DNA of 64,000 bases. Source: Chloroflexota bacterium (GTDB lineage Bacteria; Chloroflexota; Chloroflexia; QHBQ01). Under the pieces are notes generated by a model. It was not told the origin of the DNA. It did no database searches and worked only from the letters and a program-made list of their open reading frames with translations. Where the stretch lies: NCBI GenBank assembly GCA_025355955.1, contig JANXYP010000016.1, positions 73 to 64,072 of the forward strand. The letters run 5' to 3'. This document shows positions 8,767 through 56,195 of the stretch, piece after piece. Positions within the stretch are counted from its first letter, which is position 1. Each line of letters begins with the position of its first letter. Made by a program: the position numbers and the translations under genes.

Positions 8767-8806
8767 TGCGCTTCGCCAGGGGGGACGCGATTCGCCCGCC
8801 ACACCA

Positions 8807-9004
8807 GCGTTGGTAGTTGCGATGGGCGTTGATGCGCCGCATCAGGGCGGGCCACCGCCCGCCCCTACGCCAGGGTTGGTGGTTACGATAAACATTGATG
8901 CGCTTCACCTGGGCGGGCCACCGCCCGCTCCTACCCCAGGGTTGGTGGTTGCGATGAACGTTGGTGCGCTTCACCTGGGCGGGCCACCGCCCGCCCCTAC
9001 ACCA
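8807..9004. repeat. Tandem repeat, 66 bp x 3, each unit carrying the hairpin GGGCGGGCCACCGCCCGCCCCTAC
   Basis: Units start at about 8807, 8873 and 8939: GGTTGGTRGTTRCGAT...GATGCGCYKCAYCWGGGCGGGCCACCGCCCGCCCCTAC. They lie in the convergent gap between the membrane-protein stop and the nadK stop. Confidence 0.85.
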
Positions 9005-9870: not shown

Positions 9871-10036
9871 TAGATTGCAGATTACAGATTACAGATTACA
9901 GATTACAGATTGCAGATTGCAGATTATCGCTAGCCGAATCAGCCGCACTTGACCACGGTAATGCAATGGAAGATCACACAACCCCCATGCACAATGCGGT
10001 TTACAATCTGCAATCTGCAATCTAAAATCTGCAATT
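9871..10036. repeat. Inverted pair of heptamer arrays: (CAGATTR)x8 at 9871-9926 and (CAATCTG)x~4.5 at 10004-10036
   Basis: The arrays are reverse complements of each other and are separated by 77 nt. The tlyA stop (9939) lies in the loop, and the right array is translated as the tlyA C-terminus. Confidence 0.85.
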
Positions 10037-16571: not shown

Positions 16572-17387
16572 TTGGAGGAACTAATGGCGCTCCTGGAAGC
16601 AAGCAAGATACTGAAGCAGTTTGGCGGCCTCACCGCCGTCAACAAGGTGGATTTCGACATCCCCCAGAACTCAATCGTCAGCTTGATCGGGCCGAATGGC
16701 GCAGGTAAAACCACCCTGTTCAACATCATCACCGGCTTGTATAAGCCTACTGGCGGCAGCATCGTCTTCGACGGCATGAACGTGACCGGCGCACCACCCA
16801 ACCGCATCACCGAAATGGGCGTGGCCCGCACCTTCCAGAACATCCGCCTGTTCGCCAACATGACTGCGTTGGAGAACGTGCTGGTCGGGGCGCACAGCCG
16901 AATGAAGGCGGGTCTGTTCGGTGCCGTCTTCCGCACCCCCGCCACCCGCGCCGAGGAGGCAAGGATGGCTGACCGGGGCATAGAGCTACTTGAGTTCGTC
17001 GGGTTGGCGGGCAAGGAGGAGGAGTACGCCAAGAACCTCCCCTATGGCGACCAGCGTCGCCTGGAGATCGCCCGCGCTCTCGCTAGCGACCCCAAGCTGC
17101 TGCTGCTCGACGAGCCAACCGCCGGTATGAACCCCAACGAAACCCGCGAGATGACTGGCTTCATCGGCCGCCTGCGTAGCGAGCGCGGCCTCTCCATTCT
17201 GCTCATCGAACACGACATGAAGGTGGTAATGGGCATCTCCGATCGCGTGTCGGTGCTGGACTACGGCGTGAAGATTGCCGAAGGCACCCCCGCCGAGATA
17301 CGCAGCAACCCCCGTGTCATCGAGGCCTACCTGGGCAAGGGTGGCGGCAGCCCGATGAAGCAGGACGCGACCCAAGCTGAGTGCTGA
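16572..17387 (+). CDS. livG: Branched-chain amino-acid ABC transporter ATP-binding protein (LivG-type)
   Basis: Walker A GPNGAGKTT, signature YGDQRRLEIARAL and Walker B LLLLDEP. The TGA stop lies inside the (GCTGAGT) array. Confidence 0.9.
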   Translation: MEELMALLEASKILKQFGGLTAVNKVDFDIPQNSIVSLIGPNGAGKTTLFNIITGLYKPTGGSIVFDGMNVTGAPPNRITEMGVARTFQNIRLFANMTALENVLVGAHSRMKAGLFGAVFRTPATRAEEARMADRGIELLEFVGLAGKEEEYAKNLPYGDQRRLEIARALASDPKLLLLDEPTAGMNPNETREMTGFIGRLRSERGLSILLIEHDMKVVMGISDRVSVLDYGVKIAEGTPAEIRSNPRVIEAYLGKGGGSPMKQDATQAEC

Positions 17388-17562
17388 GTGCTGAGTGCTG
17401 AGTGCTGAGTGGCAAAAAGCCCCCAGCGGGGGTTGGGGGAGAACTCTCGAAGCGTTTGAGTGGCAAAAAGCCCCCAGCGGGGGTTTGGGGGGGAACTCTC
17501 GAGCGTTACCATGCTGATTGCAACGACCAACCCACAACTTTCAACTTTCAACTTTCAACTTC
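17376..17562. repeat. Composite repeat spacer: (GCTGAGT)x5, two ~50-bp terminator-like units, then (CAACTTT)x4
   Basis: (GCTGAGT)x5 occupies 17376-17410. GAGTGGCAAAAAGCCCCCAGCGGGGGTTKGGGG..GAACTCTCGA.GCGTT occurs at 17407-17456 and again at 17458-17507. (CAACTTT)x4 occupies 17535-17562. Confidence 0.85.
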
Positions 17563-18355: not shown

Positions 18356-18376
18356 GGGGATTAAAGATTAAAGACG

Positions 18377-19456: not shown

Positions 19457-19477
19457 GCTGAGTGCTGAGTGCTGAGT
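19457..19477. repeat. Heptamer array (GCTGAGT)x3
   Basis: It lies directly after the ldh stop. It is followed at about 19474-19530 by a third, diverged copy of the AAACCCCAGCGGGGTT terminator-like unit. Confidence 0.75.
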
Positions 19478-19578
19478 GATAAGCCTGGGCAAATAAACCC
19501 CAGCGGGGTTGAGGGAGAAGTGCCGACTTACTACCAGGTCGGTTGCTGGCAAATCCGCCGGAACGAAAGGAATTGGCG

Positions 19579-20286: not shown

Positions 20287-20375
20287 GCCCGGACCCTCTC
20301 CCGGCCTCCCCCACTGGGGGAGGGGTGAAGAACAGCAACCTACATTCTACCTTCTACATTCCTATGGGGAGCAAT

Positions 20376-21956
<1,581 letters not shown>

Positions 21957-23607: not shown

Positions 23608-24741
23608 TCAGCGCGAAGAAATGAAGCTGCCCAGCCAGTTGCGGATATCATCGCCCAGTACGCCCAGCCAGTAGGTAAGGTTGTCGAGCGGCAGGGTGCG
23701 CCACAATTGGTCGCGCAGCAACAGGGCGCAGATGGCGGCGAAGCAGAACGATGCGCCCACCGGGACGTAGTCGTGCATCCGTTTGGCCCGCACCAAGACC
23801 AGCATCAGACCGATCAGTCCGGCAATTAGCGGGCCGAGCAGCAGCGGGCCAAGGATGGTGGGATACCCTAGCATCAGACCGAGCATAACCGCCAGTTCGA
23901 CATCGCCGAAGGCGAGCGCTTCCGATTCACCGCCATAGACTAGACGGGCGATGAAGTAGAAGAATAGTAGCGTGCCACCACCCACCGCTCCACCCAGCAG
24001 TGCGGAAGACAAACCCACCTCAGGGCTGAACAACGCGCCCAGCAGGGCTAGTGCCGCGCCCGCCAGCAACACGATGGTGTAGAGGTCGTGGTGCTGCCAA
24101 TCAATCGTTAGGGTAACAATCAGCACCAGGGTGAAGATTGAGTAAATAAAGAACAGAGGGCCGAGGCCATAATCAATCCAGGCAGCGGCAAGCGCAAGGC
24201 CAGTGCCAAGCTCGATTATCGGGAAGGAGAGCGGCAGCCGCTTGCCACAGTGGCGGCAACGCCCGCGTTGCCCCAGCCAGCCAAGCAGCGGCACGCTGTC
24301 GCCCCAACCCAGCGGTTCGCCACTGCGGGTGCAGCGCAGGGTTGAGTTTTGAGTTTTGAGTTTTGAGTTTTGAGTTATAGGGAACGGTGGCGCTTCTTCC
24401 TGTATCCCTACTGCCTGCTCCACCATTGCTGATTGCGATACTGCATCCGTAGGGGCGGGCGGTGGCCCGCCCTGCTCCACCACTGCTGGTTGGGGAATGG
24501 CATCGGTAGGGGCGGGTGGTGGCCCGCCCTGCTCCGCCCCTGCTGACTGTGGAATGGCATCCGTAAGTGCGGGCAGTGGCCCGCCCTGCTGCATAGGGGC
24601 GATTATTTGTTCGCCCTGCTTGGAGGGCGTATCAGGAACAGGCCACAGCCGGGGCAGGCGATAGATGATGACGTTGAGTAGCCCGCCCAACGCTACCCCG
24701 GCAATGAAAGCAAGCATGAACAATAGCGCACCCCATACCAA
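23608..24741 (-). CDS. pilD: Prepilin peptidase (A24 family) with repeat-derived insertions in the N-terminal loop
   Basis: 377 aa. The catalytic Asp contexts are IDWQHHDLY and FGDVELAVMLG. A Cys-rich segment (RGRCRHCGKRLP) and at least 6 TM segments are present. About 100 extra residues follow TM1. Confidence 0.85.
   Translation of the reverse strand: MVWGALLFMLAFIAGVALGGLLNVIIYRLPRLWPVPDTPSKQGEQIIAPMQQGGPLPALTDAIPQSAGAEQGGPPPAPTDAIPQPAVVEQGGPPPAPTDAVSQSAMVEQAVGIQEEAPPFPITQNSKLKTQNSTLRCTRSGEPLGWGDSVPLLGWLGQRGRCRHCGKRLPLSFPIIELGTGLALAAAWIDYGLGPLFFIYSIFTLVLIVTLTIDWQHHDLYTIVLLAGAALALLGALFSPEVGLSSALLGGAVGGGTLLFFYFIARLVYGGESEALAFGDVELAVMLGLMLGYPTILGPLLLGPLIAGLIGLMLVLVRAKRMHDYVPVGASFCFAAICALLLRDQLWRTLPLDNLTYWLGVLGDDIRNWLGSFISSR
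24341..24375. repeat. Heptamer array (TTTGAGT)x5 inside the pilD CDS
   Basis: GTTGAGT TTTGAGT x4, translated on the minus strand as TQNSKLKTQNS. Confidence 0.85.
24418..24588. repeat. 57-bp x 3 in-frame tandem repeat inside pilD carrying the GTAGGGGCGGGCGGTGGCCCGCCC hairpin
   Basis: The encoded 19-aa repeats are QGGPLPALTDAIPQSAGAE, QGGPPPAPTDAIPQPAVVE and QGGPPPAPTDAVSQSAMVE. The same hairpin motif occurs in the intergenic 66-bp repeats at 8807-9004. Confidence 0.85.
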
Positions 24742-24884: not shown

Positions 24885-24908
24885 AACTCAAAACTCAAAG
24901 CTCAAAAC
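24885..24908. repeat. Heptamer array (AACTCAA)x~3.5, complement of the array inside pilD
   Basis: AACTCAAAACTCAAAGCTCAAAAC lies between the aroE stop and the pilD 5' region. A degenerate array also occurs at 24744-24772. Confidence 0.7.
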
Positions 24909-30302: not shown

Positions 30303-30420
30303 AATGTTAAATGGTAAATTGTAAATGGTAAATGAAGCAGTAGGTTGGCTGGGTGAACCAGCTTCCATCCACTTCATTCAACCCATCATTCACTATTCAC
30401 CACTTAACATTCAACATTTC
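30303..30420. repeat. Inverted pair of degenerate heptamer arrays (AATGKTA-type at 30303-30337, complement at 30372-30420)
   Basis: AATGTTAAATGGTAAATTGTAAATGGTAAATGAAG faces CTTCATTCAACCCATCATTCACTATTCACCACTTAACATTCAACATTTC. The loop contains GCTGGGTGAACCAGC. Confidence 0.7.
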
Positions 30421-30566
30421 TTTACCAATGACCGCCGGTGCGTCTTAGGATGCTTAAACCGAAAGGGCCTGCCGAGGTGAAGGAGCGGAAAAGCATAGGA
30501 CTGGCGCAGCGGACCAAACCCCGTTGCCACGCCGAGAGGCGCAGGCCAGACCGACTGCATTGACCA

Positions 30567-30601
30567 ATCCCCAACCCTCTGCGGCTGGGGATTTTTCTTT
30601 T
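30567..30601 (+). terminator. Intrinsic terminator or attenuator in the rplA-rplJ spacer (possible 3' end of an L10-leader-like element)
   Basis: AATCCCCAACC-CTCTGC-GGCTGGGGATT is followed by TTTTCTTTT. The structured GC-rich region at 30420-30566 lies upstream. Confidence 0.6.
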
Positions 30602-30612
30602 GGCTTATTGGA

Positions 30613-30686
30613 CCAGGGCGTGATTTATCACGCCTCTACATTGCGCGAGGCATATTGGAACGGGGCATGATTTATCACGTCCCTGG
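30613..30686. repeat. Two GC hairpin repeats in opposite orientation
   Basis: CCAGGGCGTGATTTATCACGCCTCTACA at 30613-30640 and CGGGGCATGATTTATCACGTCCCTGG at 30661-30686. Confidence 0.7.
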
Positions 30687-30716
30687 ATTGCGAGAGCGTG
30701 CAACAACGCTCACCCA

Positions 30717-30751
30717 CAATCTGCAATCTGCAATCTGCAATCTACAATTAA
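30717..30751. repeat. Heptamer array (CAATCTG)x5 just upstream of the rplJ RBS
   Basis: CAATCTG x3, then CAATCTA and CAATTAA. This is the same heptamer as at 10004-10036. Confidence 0.8.
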
Positions 30752-32709: not shown

Positions 32710-33774
32710 ATGCTGACAACTGTGGTAGGCAACTACCCGAAGATTGCGAACCGCCGCGAGAGCGATGCCCCCAAAGCCGCCTCCGCCACCTTCAACCCCA
32801 ATGCGACATCGATAACCACCGCGACTGCGACCGCGGGCGATAATACCACCCTGCCCACCAATCTGCGCCGCGCCCTTGCGCTGTTCGATGAAGGCAAGCT
32901 GACCGCCGACCAGTTGAAGGAGGTGCAGGATAACATCACTATCGAGGTGATCAAGGAGCAGGAAGCGGCGGGCCTGGACATCATCACCGACGGCCACATC
33001 CGCTGGGCCGACGACCAGACTTACATCGCGGGCAAGATAAAGGGCTTTACCCTGAGCGGCCTGCTACGCTATTTCGATAGCAACACCTATTACCGCCAGC
33101 CAGTCGCCGACGGCAAGCTCTCCGCCGCTGGACCCATCCTGCTGGCCGACTACCAGTTCGCCGCCGCGCACGCCAACAAGCCGGTCAAGGTTTCGTTGGA
33201 TGGCCCCTACACCCTGGCCCGCCTGAGCAAGAACGAGCATTACAAGAGTGATGAGGATTTCGCCCTCGCCCTCGCCGACATCCTTAACGCTGAGGCTAAG
33301 GCGCTGCTCAAGGCGGGTGCGCCAATCATACAGTTCGATGAACCAGCCATCCTGCGGCACAAGGGCGATTTTGCCCTGTTCGCCAAGTTGATGGCGCGGC
33401 TGACCGCTGACCTCGACCAGAGCAAGCTGGCGCTCTACACCTACTTCGGCAACCTCGATGGCCTCGACCACTATTTCGAGCTACCCTTCGGCAGCTTTGG
33501 CATCGACCTGACCGATGATTATGGCCGCGATAGCTGGGCCTGGCTCAACTTCTTCCCCAAAGGCAAAACCCTCGGCCTGGGCATTGTGGATGCCCGCAAC
33601 ACCAGGCTGGAGACGGTGGCCGAGCTAGTTGCCAAGATCAACGAACTGCCGGAGAACATTGACCGCAGCGCAGTGCAGGTTAGCCCTAACTGCGGGTTGG
33701 AGTTCCTACCCCGCGAACGCGCTCAGGAGAAGCTCACCCGCATGGTCGAGGCGGTCAAGTCAGTTAGTCGCTAA
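32710..33774 (+). CDS. MetE-like (beta/alpha)8 barrel protein lacking the zinc ligands (N-terminal-domain equivalent of cobalamin-independent methionine synthase)
   Basis: 354 aa and homologous in layout to the next gene. It has YTYFGNL where the partner has THICYGDF, and it retains SPNCGLEF. A ~40-aa low-complexity insert lies near the N-terminus. Confidence 0.7.
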   Translation: MLTTVVGNYPKIANRRESDAPKAASATFNPNATSITTATATAGDNTTLPTNLRRALALFDEGKLTADQLKEVQDNITIEVIKEQEAAGLDIITDGHIRWADDQTYIAGKIKGFTLSGLLRYFDSNTYYRQPVADGKLSAAGPILLADYQFAAAHANKPVKVSLDGPYTLARLSKNEHYKSDEDFALALADILNAEAKALLKAGAPIIQFDEPAILRHKGDFALFAKLMARLTADLDQSKLALYTYFGNLDGLDHYFELPFGSFGIDLTDDYGRDSWAWLNFFPKGKTLGLGIVDARNTRLETVAELVAKINELPENIDRSAVQVSPNCGLEFLPRERAQEKLTRMVEAVKSVSR

Positions 33775-33910: not shown

Positions 33911-34879
33911 ATGGTACAAGGACTTTTGACAACCAGCGTAGGCAGCTTCCCCAAGCCCGCGTATTTGCTGGAGGCGCGCAACCGCTTCGCCAAGGGGGCG
34001 ATCAGCGCCGAGGAGCTAAACCAGCTTGAGAAGCAGGCCACCCGCGAGTGGATTACGTTTCAGGAAGAGATTGGCGTAGATATCCTGGTGGACGGCGAGA
34101 TGTATCGTGGTGACATGGCGACATATTTCGCCGAGCGGCTAGATGGCTTCAGCATCAGCGGGCTGGTGCGTAGCTACGGCAACCGCTACTACCGCAAGCC
34201 GGTCGCAGTCGGCGATATCCGCTGGCGCGAACCGATTAGCGTGGAGATGTTCAAGTATGCCCAGAGCCTGACCGATAAGCCGGTCAAGGGGATGCTGACC
34301 GGGCCGTATACAATGATGGACTGGTCGTTCAACGAACACTACGCCAACCGCGAGGCACTGGCGATGGCGCTGGCTGAAGCTATCCATCAGGAGGCAGTGG
34401 AGTTGGAGAACGCGGGCGCGAAGTACATCCAGATTGACGAGCCAGCCGTCTCCACCCGCCCTGAAGAGTTGGAGATTGCGATCAAGGCGATGGCGGTCGT
34501 CACCAACGGGCTGCGGGCGCACACCCTCACCCACATCTGCTATGGCGACTTCGAGAAGATCTACCCGCGAATGTTGGACATCCCCGTAGACCAGATTGAC
34601 CTGGAGATGGCGAACAGTCATTACGACCTGCTAGATACTTTTCGTAAGGCCAAGTTCACCAAGGCGATTGGCCTCGGCGTGGTGGATGTTCATAGCCACG
34701 TGATGGAGAGCGTGGACGAAGTAGCCGACGGCATCCGCCGCACCCTCGAAGTCATCCCCGCCTCCCAAATCTACGTAGACCCCGACTGCGGCCTCAAGAC
34801 CCGCACCGTCGAGGAGGCCAAGGACAAGATGCGCGTGGTGGTGGAAGCGACCAAGCGGGTCAAAGCTGAACTAAACTAA
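33911..34879 (+). CDS. metE: Cobalamin-independent methionine synthase catalytic barrel (core MetE)
   Basis: 322 aa with the zinc/homocysteine motifs THICYGDF and DPDCGLKTR, and the N-terminus LLTTSVGSFPKP. Confidence 0.8.
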   Translation: MVQGLLTTSVGSFPKPAYLLEARNRFAKGAISAEELNQLEKQATREWITFQEEIGVDILVDGEMYRGDMATYFAERLDGFSISGLVRSYGNRYYRKPVAVGDIRWREPISVEMFKYAQSLTDKPVKGMLTGPYTMMDWSFNEHYANREALAMALAEAIHQEAVELENAGAKYIQIDEPAVSTRPEELEIAIKAMAVVTNGLRAHTLTHICYGDFEKIYPRMLDIPVDQIDLEMANSHYDLLDTFRKAKFTKAIGLGVVDVHSHVMESVDEVADGIRRTLEVIPASQIYVDPDCGLKTRTVEEAKDKMRVVVEATKRVKAELN

Positions 34880-34880
34880 C

Positions 34881-34984
34881 AAGTTGAAAGTTGAAAGTTG
34901 AAAGTTACAAGAGTAAAAAAGCATTCATGTGCTTCCATATTTTACGCCTTCACTTTCAACTTTCAACTTTTCACTTTCAACTCA
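34881..34984. repeat. Inverted pair of heptamer arrays: (AAGTTGA)x~4 at 34881-34908 and (TTCAACT-type)x~5 at 34948-34984
   Basis: The arms are reverse complements with a 39-nt AT-rich loop. The pair lies between the metE stop and the next start. Confidence 0.85.
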
Positions 34985-48536: not shown

Positions 48537-49222
48537 TGTTGGCCTCGTTGCTCCTCAATCATCTTGAGGAAGTAGGCGTGGAAGCGGGTGTCCGCAGTAA
48601 GCTCAGGGTGGAAGGCACTGACCAGCAGGTTGCGTTGCCGTGCCGCCACAATCGGCGCATCCCCCTGGGCCAGGGTTGCCAGCACCTCCACGTCCCTGCC
48701 CACGCTCTCGATGTACGGGGCGCGGATGAAGATCATAGGGAAGGGCGGCTCACCCAGCGTGGGGATGAGCGCGGATGTCTCGAAACTATCAATTGCCCTG
48801 CCAAAGGCGTTGCGCCGCACCTTCACGTCCATTACCCCAAACAGGCTTTGCGGCTGGCCCTCGATCAGTGCGGCAGTGTCGCCAATGTCGCGGGAGAGCA
48901 TGATCATACCAGCGCAGGTGCCGTAAATGGGCAGCCCCTGCTGCGCCAGCGCAGCAATCGGCCCCTTCAGCCCATAAAGCTCGGCCAACTTGCCAATCGC
49001 GGTGCTTTCGCCGCCGGGGATGATCAACCCATCAATCCCCGCCAGTTGCAGCGGCTGGCGCACCTCGACTGTCGCCACCCCCAGCCGCTGCAGCATTGCA
49101 ATATGCTCGGCAAAGTCGCCTTGCAGGGCCAGCACGCCGACCCGGAGTGCTGAGTGCTGAGTGCTGAGTGCTGAGTCTTGCGGTTCAGCTATCTTCTGCT
49201 GCCTGATCTGCTGATTGGTCAT
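48533..49222 (-). CDS. pdxT: Pyridoxal 5'-phosphate synthase glutaminase subunit PdxT
   Basis: VGVLALQGDFAEH, the catalytic GTCAG and the C-terminal FHPE. The ATG at 49222 follows GGAG. The ~25-aa N-terminal extension translates the heptamer array (DSALSTQHSAL). Confidence 0.85.
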   Translation of the reverse strand: MTNQQIRQQKIAEPQDSALSTQHSALRVGVLALQGDFAEHIAMLQRLGVATVEVRQPLQLAGIDGLIIPGGESTAIGKLAELYGLKGPIAALAQQGLPIYGTCAGMIMLSRDIGDTAALIEGQPQSLFGVMDVKVRRNAFGRAIDSFETSALIPTLGEPPFPMIFIRAPYIESVGRDVEVLATLAQGDAPIVAARQRNLLVSAFHPELTADTRFHAYFLKMIEEQRGQH

Positions 49223-49294
49223 CTTAGTCTCCAGGTCTGCATAACCGAGTGCCGAGTTCCAAGCTAATCCACTCAGCACTCAGCACTCAGCACT
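49145..49294. repeat. Inverted pair of heptamer arrays: (GAGTGCT)x~4.7 at 49145-49177 and (ACTCAGC)x~3.4 at 49271-49294
   Basis: The arms are reverse complements and bracket the pdxS-pdxT junction, including the pdxT RBS and start. The left arm lies inside the pdxT coding region. Confidence 0.85.
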
Positions 49295-54104: not shown

Positions 54105-56120
54105 ATGATTGACCTAACCCTATCAGCCGCAGAACTGAGCAAACAAGGCATCGCCGCCGCCCGCGCCGGACGCAACGACGAGGCCCGCGAGTACCTGGTC
54201 GCCGCCGTCGAAGCCAACGAGCGCAACGAACCGGCATGGCTCTGGCTGGGCGGGGTAATGACCGAACTAGAAGATAAGATTGTCTGCCTGGAAAACGCGC
54301 TTACCCTCAACCCCGCCAACGAACCCGCCGCCCGCAAGCTGCAGCAATTGCAGCTCAAGCGCGAGATGCAGAAACCCGAGGCAACCCCCCTCCCCAGCCC
54401 TCCCCTAACTACGGGGAGGGAGTCTGCCTCCCTCCCCCGCCCTCCCCCAACTACGGGGAGGGAGTCTGCCTCCCTTCCCAGCCCATCCCTAACTACGGTG
54501 AGGGAGTCAACCCCGCCTGCGTCAGCAACCCAGGATTTGTATCTGAACAGCTCGGCGGCAACACAGGGCTTGCCAGCGCCACCGCTGGGTGCATTGCCCT
54601 GGGATCACCTGGTTATTCCCTTCAGTAGTGGCGACACCAGTTCGCTTCGCTCACCGGGCGACCCTAATCCAGGCGCGACCCTATCCCGCCCACCACTTAG
54701 CGGGAACGAGTACGACTCCGCTGCACCCTTCACTGGCTATCGCAGTGGCGGCTACGATGATACGGGCAACGATGGAGACTGGCTGCAGCCCGGCACCCAG
54801 CATATGCCTACCAATCCCGACTATAGCCCTGGCCGGCGGGCTGATCTGCCTGGGCCGGACGATCAGCCCGGCGGCTACCCTGAGCAACGCGACGCTAGCG
54901 AGTGGCAGCAACCCGATCGCGGTTATCACGGCGATACCAGCGCAAGCGCATGGGTCAACCCATTTGCCTCCGTTGCGGAAACCAATGGCTATAGTCCTTA
55001 CAACTCTAGCCAGGATGCGCCTGCTCCCCTCCACGATACGCAGCGCTACTCAGGTGCGGCCTTGAACTCCGACTTCAACCCCCTGACCGAGCAACTCGAA
55101 CACGATGAGCGCTTCGACTGCCCTTACTGCGGCTGGCAAACTCGGGTAGAAGATCAGCGTTGCCCCAACTGCAGCGGTGATCTCTACATTTATGCCAGCG
55201 CCAACGAAAAGCGTTCTAGCGCCCTCGTGCGCGTGGTTCTGCTGTGGGTGGTTCGCGCCCTTAGGTCGGCGGTTGGCCTGGGTCTGGCGATCTTTACGGC
55301 AGAGGTAGTGAAGCAGCAGATGCAAAAGGTGAGTGTCAGCCTGGATACTTCGACGATCGCTCATTATGGCCTAACCCCTGGGGAGATCAATGCGGTCACG
55401 CAGCAACGGGAAACCTCCATCGCTATCTACTATGGCGTAGTCATCGGCATCGCCATCATCATGGCGATTGGCTCGTGGTCGCGGATGCGGATATTCTATC
55501 GGATTAACATCGCAGTAATTATACTGACCGGGTTCGCTTCATTCCTCAGCTATGTGTTTGACCCGGTTAAAAGCCCTACCAACCTGATTATTGATGTGGT
55601 AATTTTGTTTGCCCAGTTTCTGTCAATCGTACGCGCCGAGCCTGACTTCATCAATCAGAAGCAGCGCATCGTGGAGCCGAACTATCACGGTGAGGTCAGC
55701 GCCCTCGGCTTCTTCAACCTGGGAACGCAGTTTCAAAAGGCGGGCTACACCGCACTGGCAGCCAAAGCGTGGCAGCGTTCGGTGTCAATGGGTCCTAGTG
55801 ATGGTCGCACTCGCGCCGCCCTGGCGATGGCCTACACTCGGATGAAGCGCTACGATTTGGCGGTGGAGCAGCTCAATGAAGCGTTGAAGATAGACCCGCA
55901 TGATACCCGTGCTATGAATCTGATGGCAATCTCACAAATGCGTGCTGGCAACTACGATGAGGCCCGTAGCTATGTCGCCGCCGCGCTCGAAGCCAAGCCT
56001 AATGATCCCGATACCCTTGATAACCAGAAGCAAATCGAGGATGAAATCAAGAAGGCGGCCAGCAAGCCGCCGACCAAGCCAGCCGTGCCGAAGCAGAACA
56101 CCAAGAAAGCAGTTGGCTAA
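54105..56120 (+). CDS. TPR-repeat membrane protein with a zinc ribbon and repeat-derived low-complexity region
   Basis: 671 aa. It has an N-terminal TPR, the zinc ribbon CPYCGWQTRVEDQRCPNCSG, ~4 TM segments and C-terminal TPRs. A tandem 14-aa repeat region is also present. Confidence 0.7.
   Translation: MIDLTLSAAELSKQGIAAARAGRNDEAREYLVAAVEANERNEPAWLWLGGVMTELEDKIVCLENALTLNPANEPAARKLQQLQLKREMQKPEATPLPSPPLTTGRESASLPRPPPTTGRESASLPSPSLTTVRESTPPASATQDLYLNSSAATQGLPAPPLGALPWDHLVIPFSSGDTSSLRSPGDPNPGATLSRPPLSGNEYDSAAPFTGYRSGGYDDTGNDGDWLQPGTQHMPTNPDYSPGRRADLPGPDDQPGGYPEQRDASEWQQPDRGYHGDTSASAWVNPFASVAETNGYSPYNSSQDAPAPLHDTQRYSGAALNSDFNPLTEQLEHDERFDCPYCGWQTRVEDQRCPNCSGDLYIYASANEKRSSALVRVVLLWVVRALRSAVGLGLAIFTAEVVKQQMQKVSVSLDTSTIAHYGLTPGEINAVTQQRETSIAIYYGVVIGIAIIMAIGSWSRMRIFYRINIAVIILTGFASFLSYVFDPVKSPTNLIIDVVILFAQFLSIVRAEPDFINQKQRIVEPNYHGEVSALGFFNLGTQFQKAGYTALAAKAWQRSVSMGPSDGRTRAALAMAYTRMKRYDLAVEQLNEALKIDPHDTRAMNLMAISQMRAGNYDEARSYVAAALEAKPNDPDTLDNQKQIEDEIKKAASKPPTKPAVPKQNTKKAVG
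54392..54512. repeat. 42-bp x ~3 in-frame tandem repeat (CCTCCCC..GGGGAGGG hairpin family) inside the TPR gene
   Basis: AACTACGGGGAGGGAGTCTGCCTCCC recurs at 54407, 54449 and 54491. The encoded peptide is PPLTTGRESASLPR/PPPTTGRESASLPS/PSLTTVRES. Confidence 0.8.
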
Positions 56121-56195
56121 TAGGGATACGCAAGGCGCACGGCCATGCGCCCCATGGACTGGTCAAATTCTATCTTCTACATTCTACCTTTAACT

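What the first reader, a model, noticed from the sequence alone, without database searches (positions are those of the whole stretch)
9871..10036. Heptanucleotide tandem arrays, commonly as inverted pairs forming long hairpins at gene junctions (STRR-like)
At least 15 arrays with a 7-nt period occur in 64 kb, using a small vocabulary. CAGATTR/CAATCTG occurs at 9871-9926, 10004-10036 and 30717-30751. GCTGAGT/ACTCAGC occurs at 17376-17410, 19457-19477, 49145-49177 and 49271-49294. TTTGAGT/AACTCAA occurs at 24341-24375 and 24885-24908. AAGTTGA/TTCAACT occurs at 34881-34908, 34948-34984 and 17535-17562. AATGGTA-type arrays occur at 30303-30337 and 30372-30420. TACATTC/TACCTTC occurs at 20341-20361 and 56171-56191, both just upstream of start codons. 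Four pairs are reverse complements 39-100 nt apart, so the co-transcribed RNA could fold into 25-50-bp stems bracketing gene junctions (tlyA/nadK, rplA/rplJ spacer, metE/grx-like, pdxS/pdxT). Heptameric short tandemly repeated repetitive (STRR) sequences are known from heterocystous cyanobacteria. I am not aware of this inverted-pair architecture being described. Possible roles include RNase III or processing sites, operon polarity control, replication-slippage hotspots, or protein binding.
Basis: partly seen in the sequence, partly recalled or inferred. Interest (0 to 1): 0.6.

Follow-up and report, generated by a model that had tools for sequence, protein, structure and literature searches.

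The report
Heptamer-repeat hairpin cassettes at operon junctions
An uncultured Chloroflexia bacterium packs short runs of 7-base repeats against gene ends. Between consecutive genes they often occur as mirrored pairs that would fold into long hairpins. This repeat class is already known, but here the hairpin is kept between sister species even when its sequence is swapped.

Summary
All listed arrays are present. Genome-wide (5.15 Mb), perfect tandem runs of at least 3 copies number 408 for period 7, against 30 for period 6 and 3 for period 8. About 1,200 arrays use roughly 11 main units.

Polarity is fixed. The C-poor strand is the sense strand right after stop codons (383:56). The G-poor strand is the sense strand about 17 nt before start codons (213:22).

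Complementary pairs are non-random, but only between co-directional genes: 38 same-unit pairs against 8.6 expected, and 70 against 16.6 if one mismatch per unit is allowed. Divergent spacers show no excess and convergent ones little.

In a sister species (about 86% identical), 28 of 41 orthologous junctions still hold a heptamer hairpin, and 9 of these use a different unit. At two junctions, three species of the genus each carry a complementary or near-complementary pair, with three different units at one junction and two at the other.

Rehm et al. 2015 report 70-75 convergent pairs per Xanthomonas genome.

My best reading is a stop-to-RBS hairpin cassette acting in polycistronic mRNA. This is inferred, because no RNA data were available and a G·U wobble test was negative.

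The parts
10004..10035 (-). 5' arm of pair 1. The sense strand reads (CAGATTG)n, the G-type. It lies at the 3' end of the tlyA-like ORF, which reads through it to a stop at 9939.
9927..10003 (-). Unique 77-nt loop of pair 1.
9872..9926 (-). 3' arm of pair 1. The sense strand reads (CAATCTG)2(TAATCTG)5, the C-type. It ends 15 nt before the nadK TTG start (9857), just 5' of a GGAG Shine-Dalgarno motif. It pairs with the 5' arm through several G.U pairs.
17376..17411 (+). (GCTGAGT)5 G-type array. It supplies the TGA stop codon (17385-17387) of the livG-like ABC ATPase gene.
17535..17561 (+). (CAACTTT)3.9 C-type array, 18 nt before the start (17579) of the next ABC ATPase gene. With 17376-17411 it forms a pair of different units.
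18359..18374 (+). (GATTAAA)2.3 array, 4 nt after a stop codon.
19457..19478 (+). (GCTGAGT)3 G-type array, 7 nt after the malate/lactate dehydrogenase stop codon.
20340..20361 (+). (CTACATT/CTACCTT)3 C-type array, just 5' of GGGGAG and the ATG (20376) of the iPGM gene.
24342..24376 (-). (AACTCAA)5 in sense, the C-type. It lies inside the long pilD ORF.
24885..24908 (-). (TTGAGTT)3.4 in sense, the G-type, 4 nt after the aroE stop codon.
30303..30334 (+). 5' arm of pair 2: (AATGGTA)4.6, 5 nt after the rplA stop codon.
30372..30420 (+). Degenerate 3' arm of pair 2 (CATTCAC/CATTTAC type). It lies upstream of the long rplJ leader.
30717..30748 (+). (CAATCTG)4.6 C-type array, just 5' of GGGAGGTG and the rplJ TTG start (30774).
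34881..34906 (+). 5' arm of pair 3: (AAGTTGA)3.7, 2 nt after the stop codon of the MetE-domain ORF.
34952..34982 (+). 3' arm of pair 3: (ACTTTCA)4.4. It ends 4 nt before GGAGGTG and the ATG (34998) of a glutaredoxin-like ORF.
49270..49294 (-). 5' arm of pair 4. The sense strand reads (GTGCTGA)3.6, 4 nt after the pdxS stop codon.
49145..49176 (-). 3' arm of pair 4. The sense strand reads (ACTCAGC)4.6. It lies inside the 5' end of pdxT. The GGAG motif and the ATG at 49222 sit in the loop, so this arm is translated.
56171..56191 (+). Degenerate (TTCTAYM)3 C-type array, 5 nt before the tsaE ATG (56196).

Best explanation
These are STRR-like heptanucleotide tandem arrays that occupy the margins of genes with a fixed polarity. 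The C-poor (G-type) strand is the sense strand directly after stop codons. The G-poor (C-type) strand is the sense strand just upstream of the Shine-Dalgarno site.

At stop-to-start junctions of co-directional genes, the two margins very often carry the same unit in opposite orientation. Together they form a cassette. A G-type arm (median 31 nt) lies flush with the stop codon. It is followed by a unique loop (median 50 nt). A C-type arm then ends just before the ribosome-binding site.

The cassette, rather than the single array, behaves as the unit that is gained, lost and replaced.

Inferred mechanism: in the polycistronic mRNA the cassette folds into a 20-35 bp A/U-rich stem. The stem tucks the inserted DNA away and brings the upstream stop codon next to the downstream ribosome-binding site. 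It is also long enough to be a target of RNase III or a barrier to exonucleases. It would therefore preserve or tune the coupling and relative stability of neighbouring cistrons.

Shown here: the architecture, the polarity, the orientation-specific excess of complementary pairs, and the retention of a hairpin at orthologous junctions despite unit replacement. Inferred: folding in vivo and any effect on expression.
For: Period-7 excess: 408 runs against 30 (period 6) and 3 (period 8). About 1,209 arrays fall into 165 canonical units, of which 11 dominate.

Polarity: near stop codons 383 arrays are G-type and 56 C-type. Near start codons 213 are C-type and 22 G-type. Median distances are 1 nt from the stop and 17 nt from the start. 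Adjacent arrays run G-then-C 175 times and C-then-G 13 times.

Complementary pairs by spacer class:
- Co-directional junctions (n=170): same unit 38 against 8.6 expected (maximum 20 in 2,000 shuffles). With at most one mismatch per unit, 70 against 16.6.
- Divergent junctions (n=19): 1 against 0.8.
- Convergent junctions (n=32): 2 against 1.5.
At loops of 60 nt or less the complementary fraction is 44/76 for co-directional, 2/15 for convergent and 2/10 for divergent junctions.

Geometry of the 70 co-directional pairs: the 5' arm starts within -15 to +10 nt of the stop codon in 52. A Shine-Dalgarno-like motif lies within 20 nt after the 3' arm in 47.

Sister species G002 (flanks 80-95% identical). 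Of 41 complementary junctions, 19 keep a heptamer hairpin with the same unit, 9 have a hairpin with a new unit, 7 have none and 6 lack the cassette. Of 51 non-complementary junctions, only 6 have a hairpin (Fisher p = 2e-8).

Three species of the genus carry three different complementary units at the nuoH junction, and two units at the MetE/glutaredoxin junction. The sister genus has no heptamer cassette at either junction; at MetE/glutaredoxin its spacer is only 13 nt.

pdxS-pdxT junction: heptamer stems built from at least 5 different units occur among 27 order-level relatives. Only 1 occurs among 65 more distant genomes, which mostly have very short spacers.

The four window pairs fold far better than shuffles. 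An RNase III gene is present.
Against: A wobble test gave no sign of selection on RNA pairing. In the sense strand of the 70 stems, A.C mismatches (62) outnumber G.U pairs (36) (likewise 74 against 49).

Arm lengths are uncorrelated (rho = 0.07).

Six of 41 cassettes are simply absent in the sister species, so they are dispensable at least there.

Turnover is very fast and new cassettes are drawn from a fixed vocabulary. A mutational 'writer' could also produce this pattern.

Gene starts were called by a crude home-made caller, so distances to start codons are approximate.
Confidence: 0.45

Rival explanations
1. The pairs are a non-functional by-product of a DNA-level process. Heptamer arrays are selfish or mutational simple-sequence repeats. 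A pair is born in one event, such as inverted duplication by template switching or repair of a break in the hairpin. The hairpin itself makes the site fragile, so cassettes are repeatedly destroyed and rebuilt at the same junction. Selection only filters orientation. G-less leaders carry no start codons or Shine-Dalgarno mimics, and C-less trailers are rich in stop codons.
For: There is no G.U wobble signature. Turnover is rapid, and arms plus loop are replaced together. Cassettes are absent in the sister species with tight junctions and no target-site duplication. Retained pairs share new unit variants in both arms, sometimes in mirror order. Loops carry a G-to-C skew gradient (+0.18 to -0.19) that array-free spacers lack.
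Against: A DNA-only process should be blind to gene orientation. Yet the excess of complementary pairs is confined to co-directional junctions, even at equal loop length (44/76 against 4/25). Loops show no residual 7-nt periodicity. Arm lengths are uncorrelated, which does not fit a simple inverted duplication.
Confidence: 0.3
2. The arrays are multivalent binding sites for a single-strand nucleic-acid-binding protein, with one protein per heptamer (Csp-, S1- or CsrA-like, as proposed for TAACTGA repeats). Under this view complementary pairing is incidental or competes with binding.
For: The vocabulary is small and nearly identical in two species, although individual arrays turn over. Arrays sit directly upstream of ribosome-binding sites. 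MacGregor 2015 (PMC4679880) puts forward this idea and cites CspB binding to heptamer repeats.
Against: At least 11 quite different units would need many binding specificities. The idea does not explain why the two arms of a junction carry complementary units, or why both are swapped together. No candidate protein was examined.
Confidence: 0.1
3. The arrays act through G-quadruplex or i-motif DNA or RNA structures, as proposed for GGGAATC and GGGGA(C/T)T repeats.
For: They show the same placement rule and the same convergent pairs as the arrays of Rehm et al. 2015.
Against: None of the main units (GCTGAGT, GAGTTTT, GCAGATT, AAAGTTG, GTAGATT, AAGGTAG, AATGTAG, AGGCATG, ACTGAGG, AATGGTG, AAATGGT) contains a run of three G residues. 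Canonical G4 formation is therefore not possible.
Confidence: 0.03
4. The pairs are intrinsic transcription terminators or attenuators between genes.
For: They are long stems located just after stop codons.
Against: The stems are A/U-rich. They are followed by a Shine-Dalgarno site and a start codon rather than a U-tract. They lie inside conserved operons such as pdxST. In some cases the downstream start codon lies in the loop.
Confidence: 0.05

Closest known systems
G-rich heptamer arrays GGGAATC (Xanthomonas) and GGGGA(C/T)T (Nostoc PCC 7120), Rehm et al. 2015, PLoS One (PMC4692102)
   Same: They are heptamer tandem arrays that are mostly intergenic. The G-strand lies on the non-coding strand upstream of ORFs and on the coding strand downstream. 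Xanthomonas has 70-75 convergent inverted pairs per genome, and the arrangement is usually preserved between two species.
   Different: Those genomes use one unit with a G-tract, and a G-quadruplex is the proposed structure. Here there are about 11 main units without G-tracts. Pairing excess is restricted to co-directional junctions. Both arms are replaced together by another unit between sister species.
STRR (short tandemly repeated repetitive) heptamers of heterocystous cyanobacteria (Mazel et al. 1990; recalled from my own knowledge)
   Same: Both have 7-nt units, dispersed short tandem arrays, a few unit families per genome and a non-coding location.
   Different: The phylum differs (Chloroflexota, class Chloroflexia) and so do the units. 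Inverted-pair cassettes are not a defining STRR feature.
TAACTGA direct repeats of Beggiatoaceae, cyanobacteria and Bacteroidetes, MacGregor 2015 (PMC4679880)
   Same: Heptamer arrays lie in a fixed 'forward' orientation within a few nucleotides of start codons. Indels come in 7-nt steps between strains.
   Different: That system has a single unit, which often replaces the Shine-Dalgarno site. Only one inverted repeat was reported. Here the arrays sit 5' of an intact Shine-Dalgarno site, and stop-side arrays are equally common.
Heptamer-derived satellites of Chloroflexus aurantiacus, (GATAGRA)n, Subirana and Messeguer 2019 (PMC6749651)
   Same: They occur in the same class of bacteria and are heptamer arrays scattered through the genome.
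   Different: That paper gives no analysis of polarity, pairs or junctions, and it describes a different unit.
REP/BIME elements as intercistronic mRNA hairpins in enterobacteria (for example malE-malF; recalled from my own knowledge)
   Same: This is what the cassettes would work like: repeated extragenic palindromes between cistrons that fold in the mRNA and affect segment stability.
   Different: REPs are copies of one palindromic sequence associated with RAYT transposases. Here the arms are tandem heptamers, the loops are unique, and the units differ from site to site.

Membership tests
STRR sequences (Mazel et al. 1990) | Heptanucleotide unit repeated in tandem, with many dispersed copies | tested here: met
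   About 1,209 period-7 arrays occur genome-wide. Perfect runs of at least 3 copies number 408 for period 7 against 30 (period 6) and 3 (period 8).
STRR sequences (Mazel et al. 1990) | Found in heterocystous cyanobacteria, with units STRR1-3 (units recalled from my own knowledge) | tested here: not met
   The closest named PdxS relative retrieved is a Chloroflexia MAG, in line with earlier notes of this scan. Use of pdxS/pdxT is consistent with that. The main units are GCTGAGT, GAGTTTT, GCAGATT, AAAGTTG and others.
Rehm-type polar heptamer arrays | Mostly intergenic, with a fixed strand relative to the neighbouring ORF end | tested here: met
   Stop side 383 G-type against 56 C-type. Start side 213 C-type against 22 G-type.
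Rehm-type polar heptamer arrays | Convergent inverted pairs in close proximity | tested here: met
   175 G-then-C pairs against 13 C-then-G. Same-unit inverted pairs number 43 against 6.7 expected.
Rehm-type polar heptamer arrays | G-tract in each unit that allows G-quadruplex formation | tested here: not met
   No main unit has three consecutive G residues.
REP/BIME or MITE elements | Copies share the whole element sequence (arms and centre). MITEs also have target-site duplications. | tested here: not met
   Loops of same-unit pairs are unique. No duplication is seen at four presence/absence junctions.
Intrinsic terminators | G+C-rich stem followed by a U-tract | tested here: not met
   The stems are A/U-rich and are followed by a Shine-Dalgarno site and a start codon.
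Any curated RNA family (Rfam 15) | Match at gathering score | tested here: not met
   Only two tRNAs match in the window.
RNase III processing hairpins | At least about 20 bp of continuous dsRNA in a transcript, and cleavage by RNase III | not testable with these tools
   Predicted stems are 20-35 bp and an rnc gene is present.

The most novel reading that the evidence does not exclude
Particular operon junctions keep a heptamer hairpin while its sequence is repeatedly overwritten, both arms and loop together, from a small vocabulary of units shared across the lineage. That would point to something not yet described. One option is a trans-acting 'writer' that adds templated heptamer repeats to both ends of a break in the hairpin. 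This would be telomere-like, with the G-strand running 5' to 3' from each gene into the spacer, and would give the G-then-C order. The other option is a set of unit-specific factors that read these intercistronic hairpins.
Probability: 0.15. Interest if true: 0.8.

Novelty: new variant of a known kind. Interest (0 to 1): 0.5.

Why it matters
Heptamer repeats at gene boundaries have been noted in cyanobacteria, Xanthomonas, Beggiatoa and Chloroflexus for decades. None of the papers read here assigns them an established function.

This genome and its sister species give a sharper handle on the problem. Complementarity of the two arms is specific to stop-to-start junctions. It also survives complete replacement of the repeat unit. 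That is structure-level conservation without sequence conservation.

This turns a vague 'repeats near genes' observation into testable hypotheses. One is an mRNA hairpin that preserves or tunes coupling between cistrons. The other is a self-renewing DNA fragile site. If the RNA reading holds, these cassettes would be a widespread, fast-evolving layer of operon-internal control in Chloroflexia.

Tried and rejected
1. MITE or REP-like mobile element. Rejected: loops are unique, there is no target-site duplication, and the cassettes fill exactly the interval from stop codon to Shine-Dalgarno site.
2. Intrinsic terminator. Rejected: there is no U-tract and the ribosome-binding site follows directly.
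3. G-quadruplex. Rejected: the units have no G-tracts.
4. Loops as decayed arrays. There is no lag-7 periodicity. A G-to-C skew gradient does exist, mostly in the outer quarters of the loop. Left open.
5. Wobble test for RNA-level selection. Negative: A.C 62 against G.U 36.
6. Arm-length correlation. None found.
7. My first impression that variant units sit in 'translational' rather than mirror order did not hold up once units were put in register. The data are too noisy to decide.
8. Same-unit excess as a consequence of the polarity rule alone. Rejected: 42 same-unit pairs among 175 G-then-C pairs against 11.5 expected.
9. Same-unit excess as a consequence of short loops alone. Rejected.
10. 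Strain-level polymorphism. An exact-pattern scan of metagenome contigs found nothing.
11. RNA-seq evidence.
12. More sister-genome sequence.
13. My guess that 20376-21956 encodes GroEL was wrong. It is iPGM.

Full report
**Observation**

The two degenerate arrays (30372-30420 and 56171-56191) can be read directly in the sequence.

The window is C319:73-64072 of a 5.15-Mb, 420-contig assembly with 59% G+C. Genome-wide, perfect tandem runs of at least three copies number 408 for period 7, 30 for period 6 and 3 for period 8. TRF finds about 1,209 non-overlapping period-7 arrays in 165 canonical units. Eleven units dominate: GCTGAGT 166, GAGTTTT 141, GCAGATT 102, AAAGTTG 78, GTAGATT 60, AATGTAG 54, AAGGTAG 54, AGGCATG 50, ACTGAGG 42, AATGGTG 39 and AAATGGT 38.

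Pfam confirms the junction genes: a tlyA-like methyltransferase next to NAD kinase, L1 next to L10, a MetE catalytic-domain ORF next to a glutaredoxin-like ORF, and PdxS next to PdxT.

The four pairs fold as RNA into stems of about 35, 28 (interrupted), 20 and 24 bp. Their z-scores against shuffles range from -3.7 to -7.3.

**Polarity**

I used a crude self-trained gene caller, so positions of start codons are approximate.
- Arrays next to stop codons have the G-rich, C-poor strand as sense in 383 cases against 56. The median distance is 1 nt.
- Arrays next to start codons have the C-rich, G-poor strand as sense in 213 cases against 22. The median distance is 17 nt, which leaves room for the Shine-Dalgarno site.
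- Adjacent arrays within 300 nt run G-then-C 175 times and C-then-G 13 times.

'G left, C right in every spacer type' is the same rule as 'C-poor sense after stops, G-poor sense before starts'. The rule is therefore tied to gene orientation.

Every array of the window obeys it. Families differ in side preference. GCTGAGT, AGGCATG and ACTGAGG lie mainly at stops, and CTACATT mainly at starts. GAGTTTT, GCAGATT and AAAGTTG are balanced, and these are the units that form most pairs.

It follows from the genetic code, not from a test here, that a G-less leader contains no ATG, GTG or TTG and no Shine-Dalgarno mimic. A C-less trailer is rich in stop codons.

**Are the inverted pairs more than chance?**

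Yes, and in a specific place. Same-unit neighbours are inverted 43 times and direct 9 times, against about 6.7 and 6.5 in label shuffles.

Given the polarity rule, 42 of 175 G-then-C pairs share the unit against 11.5 expected. A further 34 differ by one base per unit against 9 expected.

Shuffling within spacer classes localises the excess:

| Spacer class | n | Same unit, observed / expected | At most 1 mismatch, observed / expected |
|---|---|---|---|
| Co-directional | 170 | 38 / 8.6 | 70 / 16.6 |
| Divergent | 19 | 1 / 0.8 | 2 / 2.0 |
| Convergent | 32 | 2 / 1.5 | 7 / 2.8 |

Short loops alone do not explain this. At loops of 60 nt or less the complementary fraction is 44/76 for co-directional, 2/15 for convergent and 2/10 for divergent junctions.

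In the 70 co-directional complementary pairs:
- The 5' arm begins within -15 to +10 nt of the stop codon in 52.
- A Shine-Dalgarno-like tetramer follows the 3' arm within 20 nt in 47.
- Arms have a median length of 31 nt and loops a median of 50 nt.

Loops of same-unit pairs are unique sequences. Loops of different-unit pairs often hold REP-like dispersed repeats.

**Comparison with relatives**

G002 belongs to the same genus and is about 86% identical in flanking DNA. Its contig C6 is collinear with window 32577-57573. Of 240 adjacent-array junctions in G000, 92 have an identifiable ortholog. An automated classification gives:

| G000 junction class | n | Hairpin, same unit | Hairpin, new unit | No hairpin | Cassette absent |
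|---|---|---|---|---|---|
| Complementary | 41 | 19 | 9 | 7 | 6 |
| Non-complementary | 51 | 4 | 2 | 42 | 3 |

The contrast of 28/41 against 6/51 with a hairpin gives Fisher p = 2e-8.

Where the unit changes, both arms and the loop are replaced together. The new unit comes from the common vocabulary, for example AAATGGT to GAGTTTT, GAGTTTT to AAATGGT, GCAGATT to GGATTTT and GCAGATT to AAGGTAG. That vocabulary is almost the same in both species.

Retained pairs share new variants in both arms:
- In G002, the pair orthologous to window 34881/34952 has AAGTTGC units in both arms.
- In G002, the pair orthologous to window 49145/49270 has GAGCGCT units in both arms.
- One G002 pair shows the variants in mirror order.

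Presence/absence alignments show that the cassette fills exactly the interval from stop codon to Shine-Dalgarno site, with no target-site duplication.

At two junctions all three species of the genus carry complementary or near-complementary pairs built from different units:
- MetE/glutaredoxin: AAGTTGA in G000, AAGTTGM in G002, and GAGTTAT with AAAACTC in G001. The sister genus has a 13-nt spacer.
- nuoH: GAGTTTT in G000, AAATGGT in G002 and GAATTAT in G001. The sister genus has no heptamer cassette there.

At pdxS-pdxT, heptamer stems of at least five unit families occur among 27 relatives of the same order. Among 65 more distant genomes only one has such a stem, and spacers are mostly very short. 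In contrast, the tlyA/nadK pair exists only in G000.

**What it most likely is**

The cassette made of G-arm, loop and C-arm is the unit of gain, loss and replacement at stop-to-start junctions. Two facts point to the co-transcribed RNA. Coupling of the arms is specific to co-directional junctions. A hairpin persists at a junction when its sequence is swapped.

I infer that the stem folds the inserted DNA away, so that the stop codon and the next ribosome-binding site stay adjacent. These junctions are tight in outgroups. A 20-35 bp stem could also be a target of RNase III, whose gene is present, or a barrier to decay.

**Evidence against, and the main rival**

No transcript data could be obtained.

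The one direct sequence test I could devise for RNA-level pairing was negative. In the sense strand of the 70 stems there are 1,607 Watson-Crick pairs, 62 A.C mismatches, 36 G.U pairs and 78 transversion mismatches (a broader set gives 74 against 49). Functional RNA helices normally show the opposite bias.

Arm lengths are uncorrelated. Six of 41 cassettes are dispensable in the sister species. New cassettes always use vocabulary units.

A DNA-level, self-renewing by-product therefore remains a serious rival. It would involve a hairpin-induced break followed by rebuilding of both arms. Its weakness is that it should be blind to gene orientation.

**Comparison with what is known**

Rehm et al. 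2015 (PMC4692102) describe heptamer arrays in Xanthomonas and Nostoc. They report the same placement rule, 70 and 75 convergent inverted pairs in the two Xanthomonas genomes and only a few paired repeats in Nostoc. They find the arrangement largely preserved between the two Xanthomonas species, and discuss stem-loops competing with G-quadruplexes.

MacGregor 2015 (PMC4679880) describes TAACTGA arrays directly upstream of start codons and proposes S1, Csp or Csr binding. Subirana and Messeguer 2019 (PMC6749651) note heptamer satellites in Chloroflexus aurantiacus.

Relative to those papers, several things appear new here, as far as I could find:
- a multi-unit vocabulary without G-tracts, which fails the G4 feature;
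- restriction of arm complementarity to co-directional junctions;
- replacement of both arms together between sister species.

Earlier notes of this scan on the same genome had already reported the polarity rule and the link to Rehm et al.. I re-tested both.

**Verdict**

This is a new variant of a known kind, of moderate interest.

Noticed in passing
window 49135-49222 (- strand): The pdxT start (ATG at 49222, preceded by GGAG) lies in the loop of the hairpin. The loop and the C-type arm are translated as an N-terminal extension (MTNQQIRQQKIAEPQDSALSTQHSALRVGVLALQG). G002 has the same length and an open frame. The sister genus has a related MSNEQ... extension without an array.
   Followed up: partly
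window 9939-10035 (- strand): The tlyA-like ORF reads through the (CAGATTG)n arm, which has no stop codon in any frame. It continues for 65 nt into the loop before a TGA, so its C-terminal tail is encoded by repeat and loop. In relatives, tlyA ends next to or overlapping nadK.
   Followed up: partly
window 17385-17387: The TGA stop codon of the livG-like ATPase gene lies inside the (GCTGAGT)5 array.
   Followed up: partly
G000:C187:6838-6956 and rnc at C187:6148-6927 (-): The RNase III gene has its Shine-Dalgarno site and ATG in the loop of an AAATGGT heptamer hairpin. The 3' arm is translated (TFTIHHSPFTI) ahead of the conserved LQEVIGYRFRNP. E. coli rnc is autoregulated through a stem-loop in its own leader, so this could be a self-target.
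   Followed up: no
G002 loci orthologous to window 49145-49294 and to G000 C78:1201 and C314:8405: The unit variant GAGCGCT is absent as an array consensus in G000 (0 arrays). It occurs in 5 arrays in 2.3 Mb of G002, at several loci where G000 has GCTGAGT. This is either parallel change or transfer between loci, and is unexplained.
   Followed up: partly
L025, L026, L027 (relatives G020, G018, G008), pdxS-pdxT spacer: In one related family the heptamer hairpin at this junction has the opposite order: (CAGCYRT)n first, then (RYGCTGA)n. The G-first rule is therefore not universal in the order.
   Followed up: no
genome-wide, 70 co-directional stems: Transition mismatches in the stems are biased towards A.C (62) over G.U (36) in the sense strand. 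This is the reverse of what RNA helices show and is unexplained.
   Followed up: partly
window 17412-17507, 30602-30696, 8793-9004, 24414-24590, 54388-54508: Other dispersed GC-rich hairpin repeats (REP-like, some with hundreds of copies) share the same spacers. They often sit between two heptamer arrays of different units.
   Followed up: partly
window 32710-33774 and 33926-34879: Two adjacent ORFs each match the cobalamin-independent methionine synthase domains. MetE appears to be split or duplicated into two ORFs of about 320-350 aa. In G002, but not G000, the spacer between them carries a heptamer pair.
   Followed up: no
window 30421-30600: Rfam reports no L10-leader match in the long rplA-rplJ spacer, although the spacer is 475 nt long and contains three heptamer arrays and two REP-like copies.
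   Followed up: no
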